Virus record (IMG/VR): IMGVR_UViG_2713896779_000023
Reading direction: 5' to 3' (one strand)
DNA: 9,351 nucleotides
Source of the DNA: a virus
Lineage: Duplodnaviria > Heunggongvirae > Uroviricota > Caudoviricetes
Each line of letters opens with the position of its first letter. The first letter of the stretch is position 1. Under the pieces are notes generated by a model. That model was not told the origin of the DNA and ran no database searches. It worked only from the letters and a program-made list of their open reading frames with translations. Both the position numbers and the translations under genes were made by a program. Shown here piece after piece: positions 1,412-8,355 of this stretch.

Positions 1412-1461
1412 NNNNNNNNNNNNNNNNNNNNNNNNNNNNNNNNNNNNNNNNNNNNNNNNNN
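1412..1461. other. run of 50 N (masked or unresolved sequence)
   Basis: Literal n characters; interrupts gene X. Confidence 1.
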
Positions 1462-1667: not shown

Positions 1668-2306
1668 TTAAATATCTTGTTGAATTTTAAAGCATACTCC
1701 CAATATGCAAGATAGATCATCCAGCATAATTGAAGGGTAGCGAGGATTCGTGGGGACTAAAAGAATATCCGGCCCTTCTATCTCCAGTTTGCGAATGACA
1801 GGCGTTGTGGTCCCTTTGGGTAAGGCAAGGACAATATTTCCTGGTTGTACGATTCGATCGGGATCAACAAAAACTGTTGAACCATTTGGGATGGAAACTC
1901 CACCACCAGATGTCGACATACTGTCACTCTCTAGAACAACAGCAAAGGTATTGGCCGGGATTTCTCCGACAAGCTGCACACAAGAGGTTATTGAGGAATT
2001 TTTCATATAATCACTCCAGCTTGCTGCCTGCTGAAGTGATAGTAGCGGAACCGTTTTTATCGGCGGTAAAGATAGATCAAGCGAATCACCTGTATTTAAC
2101 TCTCCTCCATTAAGAAGCCAATTTTCGTTTACTTTCAATATCTTTGCCAGTGAACTTATGTAACGCGAGGACGGCGCTCCTCCACCGTTCATCCATTGAC
2201 TTACGGAGCCTTTTGATGCGCCAGTGGCATTGACAAGGTCTTTGCCTTTCAAGTTTAGCGCATGCATACGTTGGGTTATGCGTTCAGATATTGTTTGCTT
2301 GTTCAT
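1668..2306 (-). CDS. cI-like prophage repressor (N-terminal XRE-type HTH, C-terminal S24 LexA-like autopeptidase)
   Basis: 212-aa ORF. The N-terminus has an HTH pattern (GKDLVNATGASKGSVSQWMNG). The C-terminus has the Ser...Lys signature of S24 peptidases (ESDSMS ... PVIRKL). It is transcribed divergently from a cro-like gene. No SD precedes the ATG at 2306, consistent with a leaderless PRM-type transcript. Confidence 0.85.
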   Translation of the reverse strand: MNKQTISERITQRMHALNLKGKDLVNATGASKGSVSQWMNGGGAPSSRYISSLAKILKVNENWLLNGGELNTGDSLDLSLPPIKTVPLLSLQQAASWSDYMKNSSITSCVQLVGEIPANTFAVVLESDSMSTSGGGVSIPNGSTVFVDPDRIVQPGNIVLALPKGTTTPVIRKLEIEGPDILLVPTNPRYPSIMLDDLSCILGVCFKIQQDI

Positions 2307-2397: not shown

Positions 2398-2640
2398 ATG
2401 AAAAAATCAGAAGTATTAGGCTATTTTGGCGGAGTTGTTAAAACAGCCGCCGCTCTAGGAACGTCAAAAACCACAGTCAGCATGTGGGGGGAAGACGTTC
2501 CGTGGAAATGGGCGTTGCTAATTCAGGCAGTCACTGCCGGGGCGCTCAAATATGAGTTACACATACCGACGGTTGTCATTCCCGATTCTGATCATAATCC
2601 GCCTTCTAACCAAGGGGGGATTCATGAAAATCAAGCATGA
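2398..2640 (+). CDS. Cro/YdaS-like small HTH regulator (80 aa from ATG 2398; ORF-track start 2350 is probably too far upstream)
   Basis: GGAG at 2388-2391 lies 6 nt before ATG 2398. HTH-like segment VVKTAAALGTSKTTVSMW. Position and orientation match cro. Overlaps the next gene by 17 nt. Confidence 0.7.
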   Translation: MKKSEVLGYFGGVVKTAAALGTSKTTVSMWGEDVPWKWALLIQAVTAGALKYELHIPTVVIPDSDHNPPSNQGGIHENQA

Positions 2641-3049
2641 ACACATCCGCATGGCGATGAATGCCTGGGCGCGTCCTGATGGCGAAAAAGTTCCGGCAGC
2701 TGGAATAACCCAGGCTTATTTTGAGTTGGGTATGACGTTTCCTGAACTGTACGACGACAGCCATCCGGAAGCCCTGGCTCGCAATACCCAGAAAATTTTC
2801 CGCTGGATAGAGAAAGACACCCCTGATGCAGTTGAAAAAATGCAGGCTCTGTTACCGGCGATCGAAAAGGCAATGCCGCCTCTGCTGGTGGCCCGTATGC
2901 GCAGTCACAGCTCTGAATATTACCGTGAGATCGTCGAACGGAGGGATCGGCTGGTGAAAGATGTGGATGATTTTGTCGCAGCGGCGATCGCCTGGGGCAC
3001 CCTGACTAACAGTGGGGGGCAGCCTGGTAATGCTGTTGTCGTGCATTGA
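2624..3049 (+). CDS. YdaT-like protein at the cII position (141 aa)
   Basis: AGGGGGG at 2612-2618 precedes ATG 2624. The N-terminus MKIKHEHI matches my recollection of the Rac prophage YdaT family. It follows a YdaS/Cro-like gene. Confidence 0.6.
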   Translation: MKIKHEHIRMAMNAWARPDGEKVPAAGITQAYFELGMTFPELYDDSHPEALARNTQKIFRWIEKDTPDAVEKMQALLPAIEKAMPPLLVARMRSHSSEYYREIVERRDRLVKDVDDFVAAAIAWGTLTNSGGQPGNAVVVH

Positions 3050-3117
3050 CCAACAATATTCATGCCGGATTTCTTCCGGATGTTCGAGGGTAAAGTTCGG
3101 TATCAGAAGAGGTGAGT

Positions 3118-4185
3118 ATGGCTAATGCCTGGCTCAGATTGTGGCATGACATGCCAAATGACCCCAAGTGGCGAACGATTGCCAGGGTATCAGGACAGCC
3201 AATCGCAACAGTGATGGCAGTGTATATCCATCTTCTGGTGAGTGCGTCACGAAATGTCACGACATGTCACGGCGTGTCACTACGTGGTCACATTGATGTC
3301 ACGACGGAAGATTTAGCAAGTGCGCTTGATGTGACGGAAGACGTAATTGATTCAATTTTGCATGCAATGCAGGGGCGGGTTCTGGATGGTGACCTTATTT
3401 CCGGATGGGAAAAACGTCAGGTGCTGAAAGAGGACAATGGTAACGTTTCGCAAACGGCAAAATCCCCGGCAGAGCGCAAGAGAGCGCAGCGGGAGCGGGA
3501 AAAGCTGCGGAAACATAATGCTGATTGTCACGATGAGTCACGACGTGTCACGCATCTGTCACGACAAGTCACGACAGATAAAGATACAGATAAAGATACA
3601 GATAAAGATACAGATAAAGATACAGATACAGAATTAAACCCCACACATAACGCGCGCGAGAGTATTCCGACCAGTGAGTCGAATGGTGCGCCGTTGCAGA
3701 CAGCCGAACCTGAATACCTGGACGGCCTGAGCGAACCGATCGGGAAATTTCCGATGACTACTGTCTGGCAGCCGTCGCCGGATTTTCGACAACGGGCAGC
3801 AGTGTGGGGTATGGCTCTGCCTGAGCCGGAATTTACACCTGCTGAGCTTGCCGCATTCCGGGATTACTGGATGGCGGAGGGGAAGGTTTTCACGCAGGTT
3901 CAGTGGGAGCAGAAATTTGCCCGCCACGTGCAGCACGTCAGGGCACAGGTAAAACCAGTCAGCAAGGGGGGAAGCCATGCAGCATCAGGTGGCACGGCAT
4001 CACGGGCAGTTCAGGAAATCCGGGCTGCACGCGAACAGTGGGAACGTGACAACGGATTTATCAGCAACGGAAACGGCCTGGAAGCTGTGGGAGCTCATGG
4101 GGGAGGTGTATTCGAACCGCTGGACTCAGAAGAACGGGGCCGCACCTTCGAAGCTCTGGATTGCCCAGATTGGTGCGATGACTGA
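3118..4185 (+). CDS. replication initiator (lambda-O-like role) with internal iterons and a (DKDT)n linker
   Basis: GAGG at 3109-3112 lies 5 nt before ATG 3118. The gene sits immediately upstream of a P-like gene. It contains two clusters of about 10-bp-periodic GTCACGAC repeats and a 12-bp tandem repeat, an architecture like ori-lambda inside O. The N-terminal sequence is not obviously lambda O, so the family is uncertain. Confidence 0.7.
   Translation: MANAWLRLWHDMPNDPKWRTIARVSGQPIATVMAVYIHLLVSASRNVTTCHGVSLRGHIDVTTEDLASALDVTEDVIDSILHAMQGRVLDGDLISGWEKRQVLKEDNGNVSQTAKSPAERKRAQREREKLRKHNADCHDESRRVTHLSRQVTTDKDTDKDTDKDTDKDTDTELNPTHNARESIPTSESNGAPLQTAEPEYLDGLSEPIGKFPMTTVWQPSPDFRQRAAVWGMALPEPEFTPAELAAFRDYWMAEGKVFTQVQWEQKFARHVQHVRAQVKPVSKGGSHAASGGTASRAVQEIRAAREQWERDNGFISNGNGLEAVGAHGGGVFEPLDSEERGRTFEALDCPDWCDD
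3244..3308. repeat. iteron cluster 1: about 6 copies of (T)GTCACGAC-like motif at roughly 10-bp spacing
   Basis: cgtcacga 3245-3252, tgtcacgac 3255-3263, tgtcacgg 3265-3272, tgtcact 3275-3281, ggtcaca 3285-3291, tgtcacgac 3298-3306. Confidence 0.6.
3526..3576. repeat. iteron cluster 2: 5 copies of (T)GTCACGAC at 10-11-bp spacing; candidate replication origin
   Basis: tgtcacga 3527-3534, gtcacgac 3538-3545, tgtcacg 3547-3553, tgtcacgac 3557-3565, gtcacgac 3568-3575; immediately followed by an A-rich tandem repeat. Confidence 0.65.
3577..3630. repeat. perfect 12-bp tandem repeat GATAAAGATACA x4 plus a partial GATACA
   Basis: Read directly from the sequence; encodes DKDTDKDTDKDTDKDTDT inside the initiator gene. 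Confidence 0.9.
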
Positions 4186-4639
4186 ACAGCAAATCCGTCT
4201 GGTGTGCCGTCAGTGCATGGACCGCTGCCGGGCGGGTGAAACGTGGCCCCCGGACCTGGCTGAGTTTGTTGCGCTGATTTCGGAGAGTGGGGCAAATCCA
4301 TTTGGTCTTACGGTGGATGCCGTGATGGAAGAGTACCGGCGCTGGCGCAATGAATCCTGGCGATACGACGGGAGTGATAAATACCCGTGGCCACAGCCTG
4401 TGCTGTACCACATCTGCCTCGAAATGCGTACCAGAGGGATTGAGCGCCAGATGACGCAAGGTGAGTTAAAACGACTTGCGGAACGGCAACTGACGAAATG
4501 GGCAAAGCATGTTGGTAACGGGATGAGTGTTCCGCCAGTGCGACGACAACTGGAAGGGGCGAAACACCCGCAAGGGCCAACGCCAATTGAACGGCTGAAA
4601 CAGGAATACGAACGCCGGAAGGCAGCTGGTTTTATTTGA
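3977..4639 (+). CDS. lambda-P-like replication protein (helicase loader); start uncertain (3977, 4097 or 4178)
   Basis: By-eye similarity to lambda P in several blocks (ETWPPDLAEFVAL, YPWPQPVLYHICLEMRTRG, GELKRLAERQLTKWAKHVGNG). AAGGGGGG at 3964-3971 lies 5 nt before ATG 3977. Overlaps the initiator gene in a different frame. Confidence 0.7.
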   Translation: MQHQVARHHGQFRKSGLHANSGNVTTDLSATETAWKLWELMGEVYSNRWTQKNGAAPSKLWIAQIGAMTEQQIRLVCRQCMDRCRAGETWPPDLAEFVALISESGANPFGLTVDAVMEEYRRWRNESWRYDGSDKYPWPQPVLYHICLEMRTRGIERQMTQGELKRLAERQLTKWAKHVGNGMSVPPVRRQLEGAKHPQGPTPIERLKQEYERRKAAGFI

Positions 4640-4672
4640 ATCTGAGAAACGATTTTGTCGGAGGAAATATTA

Positions 4673-5389
4673 ATGGAAACCGTATTTGACGCACTGAAAG
4701 CACTGAAAAAAGCCTCTTCACAGGTAGTGGCATCGCGCCTTGGAATCAGCCGCGAAGATGCTGTCAACGAACTGTGGAAACTGAAGCGCCGTGGTGAAGC
4801 GGATAACAAGGGGTCGATGTGGTGGCTGACTCAGACTGGTGAAAGTGAACCAGTGTCACCGGTACCGAAAGTGACAGCGCAAATGCTGACTGAGGCGATT
4901 GAACATCATGGCCCACAAACGGCGGATGAGCTGGCACTGATGTTCGGGATTACCTCCCGCCGGGCGAATTCATCACTGGCCATGGCAATCAGCAAAGGGC
5001 GTCTGATTCGCGTGAATCAGGGCGGTAAATTTCGGTACTGCATACCGGGCGCTGATTTACCGGCAGAGCCGAAAGCCGCATCCATAACGGAAACGGATGG
5101 TAAAGCCTTTCCTCAGCCAGCAGGTGTTGCGTTACCAGTCGGGGAAGCGGAAACACAGGAAGAAATAAAAACGGAAAGTGTGGCGGTCACAGTGCAGTCA
5201 CAGCCGTCGTTCACCAGAAAGCATCCGGATGGTCTGATTTTACCATCGCTGCATGTGGCTAACCGCGAGCTGCGCCGGGCAAAAGGTCAGGTTCAGAAGT
5301 GGGAGCGAGTCTGCGCCGCGCTGCGGGAGCTGAACAAGTGCCGGGATATTCTCCGGGATATTACCGCCACCAGAGAACAGCAGCGGTGA
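4673..5389 (+). CDS. hypothetical protein with two winged-helix-like segments (238 aa from ATG 4673; ORF-track start 4655 is TTG)
   Basis: GGAGG at 4659-4663 lies 9 nt before ATG 4673. HTH-like segments [17 protein letters not shown] and [19 protein letters not shown]. Function unknown. Confidence 0.6.
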
Positions 5390-7314: not shown

Positions 7315-7364
7315 NNNNNNNNNNNNNNNNNNNNNNNNNNNNNNNNNNNNNNNNNNNNNNNNNN
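7315..7364. other. run of 50 N (masked or unresolved sequence)
   Basis: Literal n characters. Confidence 1.
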
Positions 7365-7606: not shown

Positions 7607-7951
7607 ATGAAAAAGGTATTGATTGCAGCACTTATTTCCGGTGTGTCTTTTGGCGCTTTTGCACAGCAGGGTGGTTTCCAGGGGCCAGAAGCAGAGCGTT
7701 CAACAGTAGCGCAGGCAAAAGAACTGAAGGATGATGCATGGGTTATCCTTGAAGGGAGCATCGTTAAAAAAGTGGGTGATGAACGTTATGAGTTTCGTGA
7801 CAATAGCGGGACAATTGTCACGGATATTGATGACAGCGTATGGGCCGGGCAGAATGTTTCTCCGAAAGACAAAGTAAGAATTGAGGGTGAAATTGATAAA
7901 GACCTGAGCAGTGTTGAAGTTGATGTAAAGGCACTGAAATTATTAAAGTAA
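7607..7951 (+). CDS. YgiW/YdeI (BOF, bacterial OB-fold) family periplasmic protein; moron-like
   Basis: Signal peptide MKKVLIAALISGVSFGAFA followed by QQGGF. Family-typical motifs TVAQAKELKDDAWVILEGSIVKKVGDERYEFRDNSGTI and VRIEGEIDKD. AAAGAGGA precedes the ATG. Own terminator downstream. Confidence 0.8.
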   Translation: MKKVLIAALISGVSFGAFAQQGGFQGPEAERSTVAQAKELKDDAWVILEGSIVKKVGDERYEFRDNSGTIVTDIDDSVWAGQNVSPKDKVRIEGEIDKDLSSVEVDVKALKLLK

Positions 7952-8305: not shown

Positions 8306-8355
8306 NNNNNNNNNNNNNNNNNNNNNNNNNNNNNNNNNNNNNNNNNNNNNNNNNN
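8306..8355. other. run of 50 N (masked or unresolved sequence)
   Basis: Literal n characters; the frame relation across it is undefined. Confidence 1.

What the first reader, a model, noticed from the sequence alone, without database searches (positions are those of the whole stretch)
3244..3308. First iteron-like array inside the replication initiator gene
Six GTCAC(G)-centred repeats recur with about 10-bp (one helical turn) periodicity within the 5' third of the initiator coding sequence. The same core motif reappears about 280 bp downstream in a second array. Two separate arrays are unusual compared with the single four-iteron ori of lambda. One array may be the origin and the other an autoregulatory or handcuffing site, or they may reflect a duplication.
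Basis: partly seen in the sequence, partly recalled or inferred. Interest (0 to 1): 0.55.

Follow-up and report, generated by a model that had tools for sequence, protein, structure and literature searches.

The report
Split iteron origin inside phage initiator
The six GTCAC repeats are real and selected at the DNA level: they look like the upstream half of a two-part set of initiator-binding sites built into a prophage replication gene, a layout shared by related genes in many bacterial genera but not described in the papers I could search.

Summary
GTCAC starts at 3246, 3256, 3266, 3276, 3287 and 3298. A second array of five GTCACG lies at 3527-3573. In 1000 simulated windows no 5-mer made a chain longer than 3.

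The window is a lambdoid prophage of E. coli O121 RM8352. The gene (3118-4185) encodes a predicted winged-helix N-domain, a linker and a DnaT-like C-domain, and a lambda-P-like gene follows.

The two-array layout is ancestral, not a local duplication. In 35 of 56 homologous genes, from gamma-, beta- and alpha-proteobacteria and beyond, both sites carry at least three phased copies of the same motif. The motif differs between subfamilies (GTCACG, GTAACG, CGAACGC, GTGACGC).

Synonymous positions inside the repeat cores are frozen in hosts of 34-69% GC. The 10/11-bp period puts the motif in all three reading frames, so it is not a peptide repeat.

Array 2 always abuts an AT-rich, purine-rich tract and is most likely the origin core. 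Array 1 encodes a surface loop and is most likely an auxiliary initiator-binding cluster. Whether it stimulates or restrains initiation is not resolved, and binding is inferred, not shown.

I rate it a new variant of a known kind.

The parts
3118..4185 (+). Replication initiator gene (355 aa). It has a predicted winged-helix N-domain (aa 1-~99), a disordered linker and a DnaT-like C-domain. RefSeq names it 'DnaT-like ssDNA-binding domain-containing protein'; other sources use 'phage replisome organizer' or 'replication protein O'.
   Evidence: ORF and translation. Pfam DnaT domain, E = 1.6e-17 at aa 211-277. PHROG replication-initiation families. RefSeq annotation of the identical locus.
3246..3303 (+). 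Array 1, the finding. Six direct GTCAC(G/T/A) units start at 3246, 3256, 3266, 3276, 3287 and 3298. They encode aa 43-62 (ASRNVTTCHGVSLRGHIDVT), the end of helix 3 plus the loop before the helix-turn-helix.
   Evidence: Sequence and statistics. Frozen synonymous sites in 21 orthologous loci. Structure model. The 4-copy form in phage Evi and most homologs.
3330..3335 (-). Single inverted copy of the iteron (CGTGAC on the + strand, in the Asp-Val-Thr codons), 32 bp after the last direct unit.
   Evidence: Present at the equivalent position in 19 of 23 GTCAC-class loci. The Val codon is GTG wherever Val is present. It changes to CGTTAC in GTAAC-class locus L105.
3527..3573 (+). Array 2. Five direct GTCACG units start at 3527, 3537, 3547, 3558 and 3568, in the disordered interdomain linker (aa 137-152). 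This is the proposed origin core.
   Evidence: Present in every related locus that has arrays. The units are read in different frames in different loci. pLDDT is below 50 here.
3574..3632 (+). AT-rich, purine-rich tract: ACAGATAAAGAT x 4.9, encoding the peptide (DKDT)n. This is the proposed DNA unwinding element, and it is also the mosaic joint between N- and C-terminal modules.
   Evidence: TRF score 111. GC 0.30 and AT skew +0.57. The equivalent 36 nt has mean GC 0.30 against locus GC 0.55 in 47 loci (lower in 46), with 78% purine. Copy number is 2-9 hexamers among close relatives. Rac-SA53 YdaU shares sequence from here on.
3748..3948 (+). DnaT-like ssDNA-binding domain of the initiator (aa 211-277).
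   Evidence: Pfam PF17948, 63.4 bits against a cutoff of 25. The NCBIfam DnaT equivalog scores 93.7, below its cutoff of 201, so this is not a DnaT orthologue.
4178..4639 (+). Lambda-P-like helicase-loader gene (153 aa). Its start overlaps the initiator stop (ATGACTGA).
   Evidence: Pfam Phage_lambda_P, E = 1.3e-15. RefSeq 'replication protein P' at the same coordinates in the identical locus. Same arrangement in Rac-SA53.

Best explanation
Array 1 is a genuine, selected cluster of binding sites (iterons) for the initiator's own N-terminal winged-helix domain. It is the upstream half of a bipartite replication origin embedded in the initiator gene.

The origin core is array 2 (3527-3573) plus the adjoining AT-rich, purine-rich tract (3574-3632), where the duplex would open. 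The DnaT-like C-domain and the downstream P-like protein would then bring in host DnaB.

Array 1 lies 229 bp upstream, in the same orientation, followed by one inverted copy. It most likely acts as an auxiliary loading or enhancer cluster. It would raise the local initiator concentration, or join array 2 in one higher-order nucleoprotein complex.

Because the units are 10-11 bp apart, bound monomers would line up on one face of the helix. The array sits in coding DNA for a surface loop that tolerates length changes. This is why this allele could grow from 4 to 6 units by an in-frame 21-bp (10+11) gain.

Shown here: the existence, non-randomness, conservation, motif co-variation and synonymous-site constraint of both arrays; the AT-rich tract next to array 2; and the predicted structural location.

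Inferred: binding by the N-domain, the unwinding site, helicase recruitment, and the positive role of array 1.
For: 1. Non-random phased arrays.

2. The same two-site layout recurs in homologous genes. Each region was searched independently for the best 9-12-bp-spaced 5-mer chain. In 35 of 56 genes both regions had at least 3 copies with the same top 5-mer. Nine genes had only site 2, and none had only site 1.

3. The motif is the same in both arrays of a locus but differs between subfamilies: GTCACG, GTAACG, CGAACGC, GTGACGC and CTACG.

4. Selection acts on the DNA itself. In 21 loci from hosts of 34-69% GC, the codons in the iteron cores are fixed:
- Ser TCA in 20 of 21
- Val GTC in 21 of 21, at both Val positions
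- Thr ACG in 21 of 21 and 20 of 21
- Gly GGT in 21 of 21
- His CAC in 20 of 20
Other invariant 4- to 6-fold residues show 1.4-2.3 bits of codon entropy. The spacer Arg codon inside the array shows 1.76 bits.

5. The array-2 motif is kept although it is read in different frames in different loci.

6. Array 2 abuts an AT-rich tract. The tract GC is below the locus GC in 46 of 47 loci, and it averages 78% purine on the coding strand. [quoted passage not shown]

8. The gene sits in the lambda-O position directly upstream of a P-like gene.

9. Precedent: the extra iterons of Stx phages lengthen O by 13 aa and are needed for efficient replication (PMC7466680).
Against: - No binding, unwinding or replication data exist for this family in anything I could search.
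- The distance between the arrays is not kept in helical phase. The last array-1 unit to the last array-2 unit is 249-270 bp, varying in 9-10-bp steps. This argues against a rigid phase-dependent loop.
- Some family members lack array 1 altogether (L119, L128, L131, L136, L139). It is therefore not universally required.
- Outside the iteron-encoded loop, the N-domain is almost identical in subfamilies with different motifs. What sets specificity is unclear, and the protein may read only the shared ACG.
- Concerted evolution between the arrays by gene conversion could contribute to the shared motif.
Confidence: 0.6

Rival explanations
1. Array 1 is bound by the initiator but acts negatively. 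It could be a titration or handcuffing site, as incA is for plasmid P1. It could also be an intragenic roadblock by which the initiator limits its own expression or over-initiation. The terminal inverted copy could serve as a dimer-binding operator-like site, as in iteron plasmids.
For: The conservation, co-variation and synonymous-site evidence is the same as for the main explanation. Array 1 has no adjacent AT-rich tract; GC is about 0.42-0.52 at 3270-3359. A conserved inverted copy follows the direct units. In iteron plasmids, Rep dimers bound to inverted repeats repress (established knowledge). Ectopic ori-lambda iterons do inhibit lambdoid replication (PMC3349717 and PMC4488673, abstracts). 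E. coli genomes carry up to 4 copies of this allele, so cross-titration is plausible.
Against: A lytic-phase phage origin has little obvious need for copy-number restraint. The array lies about 900 bp downstream of the only promoter-like site near the gene start (2340), so it is not an operator. In Stx phages, extra iterons stimulate rather than restrain replication (PMC7466680). No data discriminate directly.
Confidence: 0.2
2. Array 1 is the primary origin or an equal second origin, and array 2 is the accessory element.
For: Array 1 has the larger number of units in this allele (6 against 5), and its cores are the most strictly conserved.
Against: The AT-rich tract follows array 2, not array 1. 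Nine family members have only site 2 at the 3-copy threshold, and none has only site 1.
Confidence: 0.08
3. The repeats are recognised by a protein other than the initiator, such as a host factor, a partition-like protein or a regulator. Alternatively they act at the RNA level.
For: Ten- to 11-bp iterons in two clusters also occur in plasmid centromeres such as R1 parC (my own knowledge). Binding by the initiator has not been shown.
Against: The motif class tracks the initiator gene across unrelated hosts and different downstream modules. Outside the two arrays, GTCACG occurs in the window only at the chance level: 6 scattered copies against about 4 expected. Rfam found no RNA family. Direct repeats do not form hairpins.
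Confidence: 0.07
4. The array has no DNA-level function. It would be a recent local duplication of array 2, or a side effect of a repeated or conserved peptide.
For: The encoded peptide (SRNVT...RGH..VT) is itself invariant among homologs. On its face this could suggest a constraint on the protein.
Against: The period of 10/11 bp is not a multiple of 3, and the motif is read in three frames. Synonymous positions are frozen against host codon bias, for example GGT and TCA in hosts of 60-69% GC. The peptide changes together with the motif of array 2 in other subfamilies, for example NATERGRTQ with CGAACGC. Both arrays are present in dozens of genera.
Confidence: 0.02

Closest known systems
Ori-lambda inside gene O of phage lambda, and the six-iteron variants of Stx phages 933W and P27
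   Same: The origin lies inside the initiator gene. Direct repeats are followed by an AT-rich region that codes for the interdomain linker. The initiator gene is followed by a P-type loader gene. Adding iterons lengthens the protein: +13 aa in Stx O (PMC7466680) and +7 aa here. Lambda anatomy is taken from PMC6022878.
   Different: The N-domain shows no Pfam match to lambda O. The units are short (6-bp core, 10-11-bp period) and have no internal dyad, whereas lambda has 18-19-bp inverted-repeat iterons bound by dimers. There are two separated arrays, one of them inside the DNA-binding domain's coding region. The C-domain is DnaT-like.
Replisome-organizer and DnaD-like initiators of Gram-positive phages (such as SPP1 G38P) and the pSK41-type RepA
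   Same: The N-terminal domain is a predicted winged helix of the DnaD-NTD type. PHROG 'replisome organizer' and 'DnaD-like helicase loader' families match. NCBI names many homologs 'phage replisome organizer'. In SPP1 the origin (oriL) also lies in the organizer gene (my own knowledge).
Bipartite iteron origins: phage P4 ori plus crr, SaPI ori (two iteron sets flanking an AT-rich region), and plasmid P1 incC/incA
   Same: Two separate clusters of the same initiator-binding repeat belong to one replicon. One cluster lies next to the opening site and the other is auxiliary (P4 crr) or regulatory (P1 incA). This comparison rests on my own knowledge of those systems.
   Different: Those clusters are intergenic or lie kilobases apart, and the proteins are unrelated. 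Here both clusters lie 229 bp apart inside the initiator's reading frame. No functional test exists.
Rac-prophage YdaU ('primosomal protein I') and the YdaV replication module
   Same: From the AT-rich joint onward, the C-terminal DnaT-like module and the P-like gene are 86-87% identical in DNA to the window.
   Different: Rac-SA53 YdaU has an unrelated N-terminal module and no GTCAC arrays. The iterons travel with the N-domain, not with the DnaT-like module.

Membership tests
Iteron-type replication origin | Three or more direct repeats of one motif, phased with the DNA helix | tested here: met
   Six units (array 1) and five units (array 2) at 10-11 bp. The simulated maximum chain length is 3.
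Iteron-type replication origin | An adjacent AT-rich DNA unwinding element | tested here: met
   Met for array 2: GC is 0.30 at 3570-3629 and the tract is conserved in 46 of 47 loci. NOT met for array 1 itself, which has no AT-rich flank.
Iteron-type replication origin | The repeats co-vary with their cognate initiator | tested here: met
   The motif class changes with the initiator subfamily and is the same in both arrays of a locus. Caveat: part of the protein difference is encoded by the iterons themselves.
Iteron-type replication origin | Specific binding by the initiator, and origin activity | not testable with these tools
   This needs EMSA or footprinting and a mini-replicon or origin-mapping experiment.
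Iteron-type replication origin | DnaA boxes next to the iterons (common in plasmid origins, not obligatory in phages) | tested here: not met
   No TTATNCACA match with up to 1 mismatch lies between 2971 and 5253. The window-wide count is at the chance level.
Lambda O protein family (Pfam Phage_rep_O) | Sequence match of the N-terminal iteron-binding domain to the family profile | tested here: not met
   The Pfam scan of the 355-aa protein at E <= 0.01 returned only the DnaT domain.
Phage replisome organizer, N-terminal domain (DnaD-NTD-like winged helix) | Profile match and a winged-helix fold of the DnaD-NTD type | tested here: inconclusive
DnaT (primosomal protein I) | The DnaT C-terminal ssDNA-binding domain | tested here: met
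   PF17948, E = 1.6e-17, 63.4 bits against a cutoff of 25, at aa 211-277.
DnaT (primosomal protein I) | Full-length equivalence to host DnaT | tested here: not met
   The NCBIfam DnaT equivalog scores 93.7 bits, below its cutoff of 201, and only profile positions 82-156 of 179 match. The protein has a DnaT-like domain but is not DnaT.

The most novel reading that the evidence does not exclude
The upstream iteron array and the initiator's specificity could be written in the same nucleotides. Array 1 encodes the loop just before the helix-turn-helix. This loop is the only part of the N-domain that differs consistently between subfamilies with different iteron motifs.

That would give a self-specifying origin module able to shift replicon specificity (incompatibility) in one step. 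It would also explain how GTCACG, GTAACG, CGAACGC and GTGACGC classes arose on an otherwise nearly identical protein scaffold.
Probability: 0.12. Interest if true: 0.8.

Novelty: new variant of a known kind. Interest (0 to 1): 0.58.

Why it matters
It would define the origin architecture of a very widespread but unstudied class of temperate-phage initiators. This allele alone is in 660 of 5426 complete E. coli genomes, with up to four copies per genome, including O157, O26 and O121 STEC. Relatives occur in Pseudomonas, Bordetella, Serratia, Sphingomonads and beyond.

It offers a clean natural case of dual coding. Protein-coding DNA here is under strong nucleotide-level selection as a protein-binding array, visible as frozen synonymous sites against host codon bias.

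Practically:
- It predicts which co-resident prophages share initiator specificity, and so could cross-activate or titrate each other.
- It explains why contigs and gene calls often break in this gene.
- It gives simple sequence rules (motif class plus AT tract) for annotating origins that genome pipelines currently leave unmarked.

Tried and rejected
- **Peptide-repeat explanation:** rejected. The period is 10/11 bp, the motif falls in three reading frames, and synonymous sites are frozen.
- **Recent local duplication:** rejected. Both arrays are conserved across genera.
- **Lambda-O membership:** no Pfam hit.
- **DnaA boxes:** none near the arrays.
- **Promoter or terminator signals around the arrays:** the counts are at the chance level. 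The one promoter-like hit inside array 2 is on the minus strand and scores 9 of 12. I did not pursue it.
- **RNA families:** none in the window.
- **Specificity residues outside the iteron-encoded loop:** I looked for them by aligning 48 N-domains grouped by motif class and found none obvious.
- **Strict helical phasing between the arrays:** not conserved.
- **Literature:** seven searches found no description of this family's origin. The held library lacks most subscription-journal papers, so an older description cannot be excluded.
- **Technical failures:** my first shuffle script timed out. A second was corrupted by the three N runs in the window and was redone without N. A first attempt to delimit the AT tract by a peptide pattern mis-located it in many loci. 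I replaced it with a fixed 36-nt window after the last iteron.

Full report
**1. The observation**

The + strand at 3244-3308 reads gcGTCACGaaatGTCACGacatGTCACGgcgtGTCACTacgtgGTCACAttgatGTCACGacgg. GTCAC starts at 3246, 3256, 3266, 3276, 3287 and 3298, with spacing 10, 10, 10, 11, 11.

A second array of five perfect GTCACG units starts at 3527, 3537, 3547, 3558 and 3568. GTCACG occurs 15 times in the window against 4.1 +/- 2.1 expected, and 0 of 200 shuffles reached 15.

As a motif-blind test, I asked for the longest chain of any 5-mer at 10-11-bp spacing. In 1000 first-order Markov simulations of the window the longest chain was 2 (971 runs) or 3 (29 runs). The real window gives 6 and 5.

One inverted copy (CGTGAC, 3330-3335) follows array 1.

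**2. Context**

The stretch searched (window 3100-3700) is 100% identical to a prophage in the chromosome of E. coli O121 str. RM8352, and the RefSeq genes there map onto the window's ORFs. The gene order is:

| Window coordinates | Strand | Gene |
|---|---|---|
| 1668-2306 | - | CI-like repressor |
| 2350-2640 | + | Cro |
| 2552-3049 | + | YdaT-family protein |
| 3118-4185 | + | the gene carrying the arrays |
| 4178-4639 | + | lambda-P-like gene, start overlapping as ATGACTGA |
| 4655-5389 | + | DUF1627 |

The gene therefore sits where lambda has O.

The protein has no Pfam match to lambda O. Its only Pfam domain is the DnaT ssDNA-binding domain at aa 211-277 (E = 1.6e-17). It scores below the cutoff for the true DnaT equivalog. 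PHROG places it in replication-initiation families and, weakly, in replisome-organizer and DnaD-like families.

The gene is mosaic. Its 5' 500 nt resemble phage Evi and relatives. Everything from the AT-rich repeat at about 3574 onward resembles Rac-SA53 ydaU-ydaV. Rac-SA53 YdaU has a different N-terminal module, no GTCAC arrays, and the same AT-rich joint. The iterons therefore belong with the N-terminal module.

**3. It is not a peptide repeat**

The period is 10/11 bp, so successive units fall in different reading frames. GTCAC is read as (A)SR, VT, CH, VS and GH in array 1, and as CH, SR, VT, SR and VT in array 2. The 12-bp repeat at 3574-3632 (DKDT) is the only true in-frame peptide repeat.

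**4. Comparative evidence**

The N-terminal ~105 aa (WLRLWHDMPNDPKWRT...) has at least 600 database relatives. It was found in 59 genome loci. These come from Enterobacterales, Pseudomonas, Bordetella, Chromobacterium, Acidovorax, Janthinobacterium, Sphingomonads, Acidobacteria and a Gemmataceae MAG.

The commonest 6-mer in the first 800 nt of these genes falls into classes:
- GTCACG, in this window's subfamily
- GTAACG
- CGAACG(C)
- GTGACG
- ACTACG

The copies sit in two clusters at the same gene positions as here: nt ~129-160 and nt ~350-430, with 10-11-bp spacing and the same orientation.

I searched each of the two regions independently for its best phased 5-mer chain. In 35 of 56 genes both regions had at least 3 copies with the same top 5-mer. 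Nine genes had only the downstream site, and none had only the upstream site.

In one distant member (L132) the upstream array sits at another place in the gene, nt 194-234. So the two-array layout is ancestral in this family and the two arrays change motif together. That is expected if one protein reads both. It excludes a recent duplication in this window.

**5. Selection acts on the DNA**

I compared 21 GTCAC-class loci whose hosts range from 34% to 69% GC. The codons that make up the iteron cores are essentially fixed:

| Residue | Codon | Loci |
|---|---|---|
| Ala | GCG | 19 of 21 |
| Ser | TCA | 20 of 21 |
| Val | GTC | 21 of 21 (both Val positions) |
| Thr | ACG | 21 of 21 and 20 of 21 |
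| Gly | GGT | 21 of 21 |
| His | CAC | 20 of 20 |

Other invariant residues of the same protein with 4-6 synonymous codons show 1.4-2.3 bits of codon entropy. The Arg codon in the spacer between two units shows 1.76 bits.

The Val codon of the inverted copy is GTG wherever Val is present. The inverted copy becomes CGTTAC in a GTAAC-class locus.

In array 2 the motif is kept even though it is read in different frames in different loci. The invariance of the peptide SRNVT-RGH--VT is thus a consequence of the DNA constraint. In the CGAACGC class the same loop reads NATERGRTQ.

**6. Where the arrays lie in the protein**

An AlphaFold2 model of aa 1-161 (46-sequence alignment, mean pLDDT 69, about 85-90 for the N-domain core) has these elements:
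- helices at 4-14, 16-25 and 29-45
- an irregular segment at 46-62
- helices at 63-70 and 74-84
- a beta hairpin
- disorder at 100-114 and 137-161

Array 1 (aa 43-62) therefore encodes the end of helix 3 and the loop before the helix-turn-helix. The 7 residues peculiar to this allele (TCHGVSL) coincide with the pLDDT < 50 stretch at 49-53. Array 2 (aa 137-152) and the DKDT repeat lie in the disordered linker.

**7. Which array is the origin core**

Array 2 runs straight into ACAGATAAAGAT x 4.9 (GC 0.30, AT skew +0.57).

Across 47 related loci, the 36 nt after the last downstream iteron average 30% GC against 55% for the locus, and are lower in 46 of 47. They average 78% purine on the coding strand. 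They usually begin AGATAAAGATA, even in hosts of 60-69% GC.

[quoted passage not shown] Array 1 has no such flank. No DnaA box lies near either array. I therefore take array 2 plus the tract as the origin core and array 1 as an accessory cluster.

**8. Copy-number dynamics**

Most family members, including phage Evi, have 4 units in array 1. This allele has 6, and the difference is 21 bp (one 10-bp unit plus one 11-bp unit), which keeps the frame.

Among the 80 closest viral contigs:
- Array 1 is always 6 units and array 2 varies from 4 to 6.
- The two contigs with a sixth 10-bp unit in array 2 (L024, L041) are frameshifted and stop at codon 157.
- The AT tract varies from 2 to 9 hexamers.

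Unit gain and loss therefore happens, and the reading frame filters it.

**9. Mechanism and its limits**

The most likely reading is as follows.
- Monomers of the N-domain bind the units on one face of the helix at both arrays.
- The array-2 complex opens the adjoining AT tract.
- The DnaT-like domain and the P-like protein load DnaB.
- Array 1 raises local initiator concentration or joins the complex. This was proposed for the extra iterons of Stx phages, which are needed for efficient replication (PMC7466680).

None of these steps has been tested.

Points against a simple looping model:
- The inter-array distance is not kept in helical phase.
- Several members lack array 1.

A negative role (titration, handcuffing or a roadblock) remains a serious rival. 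The conserved inverted copy fits that idea as well as any other.

An open puzzle is that the N-domain outside the iteron-encoded loop is nearly identical in subfamilies with different motifs. Either the protein reads mainly the shared ACG, or the loop itself contributes to specificity. The second possibility is the novel case.

**10. Novelty**

Iterons inside an initiator gene are a known kind of thing. The following features I could not find described:
- a conserved split into two arrays
- one array embedded in the coding sequence of the DNA-binding domain itself
- motif classes that switch in both arrays together
- a shared purine-rich AT tract that doubles as the module joint

RefSeq annotates no origin feature at this locus. 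The held library omits most subscription-journal papers, so prior description cannot be ruled out. I rate it a new variant of a known kind, with interest 0.58.

Noticed in passing
window 3574-3632: The 12-bp tandem repeat ACAGATAAAGAT (peptide DKDT) varies from 2 to 9 hexamer units among near-identical alleles. It is also the exact point where similarity switches from Evi-like to Rac-SA53-like DNA. The proposed unwinding tract therefore also acts as the recombination joint between the N- and C-terminal modules.
   Followed up: partly
L024 and L041 (viral contigs), gene nt ~461: A sixth 10-bp iteron in array 2 shifts the frame and ends the initiator at codon 157. These are probably inactivated copies, or assembly errors, produced by slippage of a single unit.
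   Followed up: partly
window 1412-1461, 7315-7364, 8306-8355: There are three runs of exactly 50 N (masked sequence). They corrupted one simulation until I removed them.
   Followed up: no
window 1668-2306 (-): An intact 212-aa CI-like ORF (HTH plus S24 peptidase) is present and is identical in E. coli O121 RM8352. RefSeq annotates only its C-terminal 112 aa as 'LexA family protein', leaving about 390 bp unannotated. This looks like an under-called start.
   Followed up: partly
window 3977-4639 (+): The mechanical ORF for the P-like gene is over-extended by 201 nt into the initiator gene. The real start is the ATG at 4178, which overlaps the initiator stop as ATGACTGA. This matches the RefSeq and Rac-SA53 annotations.
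   Followed up: yes
protein hits P0001-P0030: Most database copies of this initiator are labelled 'partial' (150-266 aa), with clusters of hundreds to more than 1000 members. This suggests that draft assemblies often break inside this gene, perhaps because several prophages per genome share it or because of the repeats.
   Followed up: no
L132 (Gemmataceae MAG), gene nt 194-234: In this distant member, the upstream array of five GAACG units lies in the helix-turn-helix coding region instead of the loop before it. This looks like an independent placement of an upstream array.
   Followed up: partly
L108 (Pseudomonas sp. JAI111), gene nt ~149-218: The array-1 region carries a long insertion that mixes direct GTCAC units with three inverted GTGAC units at 9-bp spacing (peptide HVDGITCHDMSRENVTNVTFVTCHE). 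This is a much more elaborate upstream cluster than elsewhere.
   Followed up: no
window 7796-7801 (-) and 7817-7822 (+): Two GTCACG copies form an inverted pair 21 bp apart, inside the NirD/YgiW/YdeI-family gene. The total count of the motif outside the arrays is at the chance level, so this is probably coincidence.
   Followed up: no
E. coli complete genomes: This initiator and array allele occurs in 660 of 5426 complete genomes, with up to 4 places per genome (3 in several O157:H7 strains). Co-resident prophages may therefore share initiator specificity.
   Followed up: no
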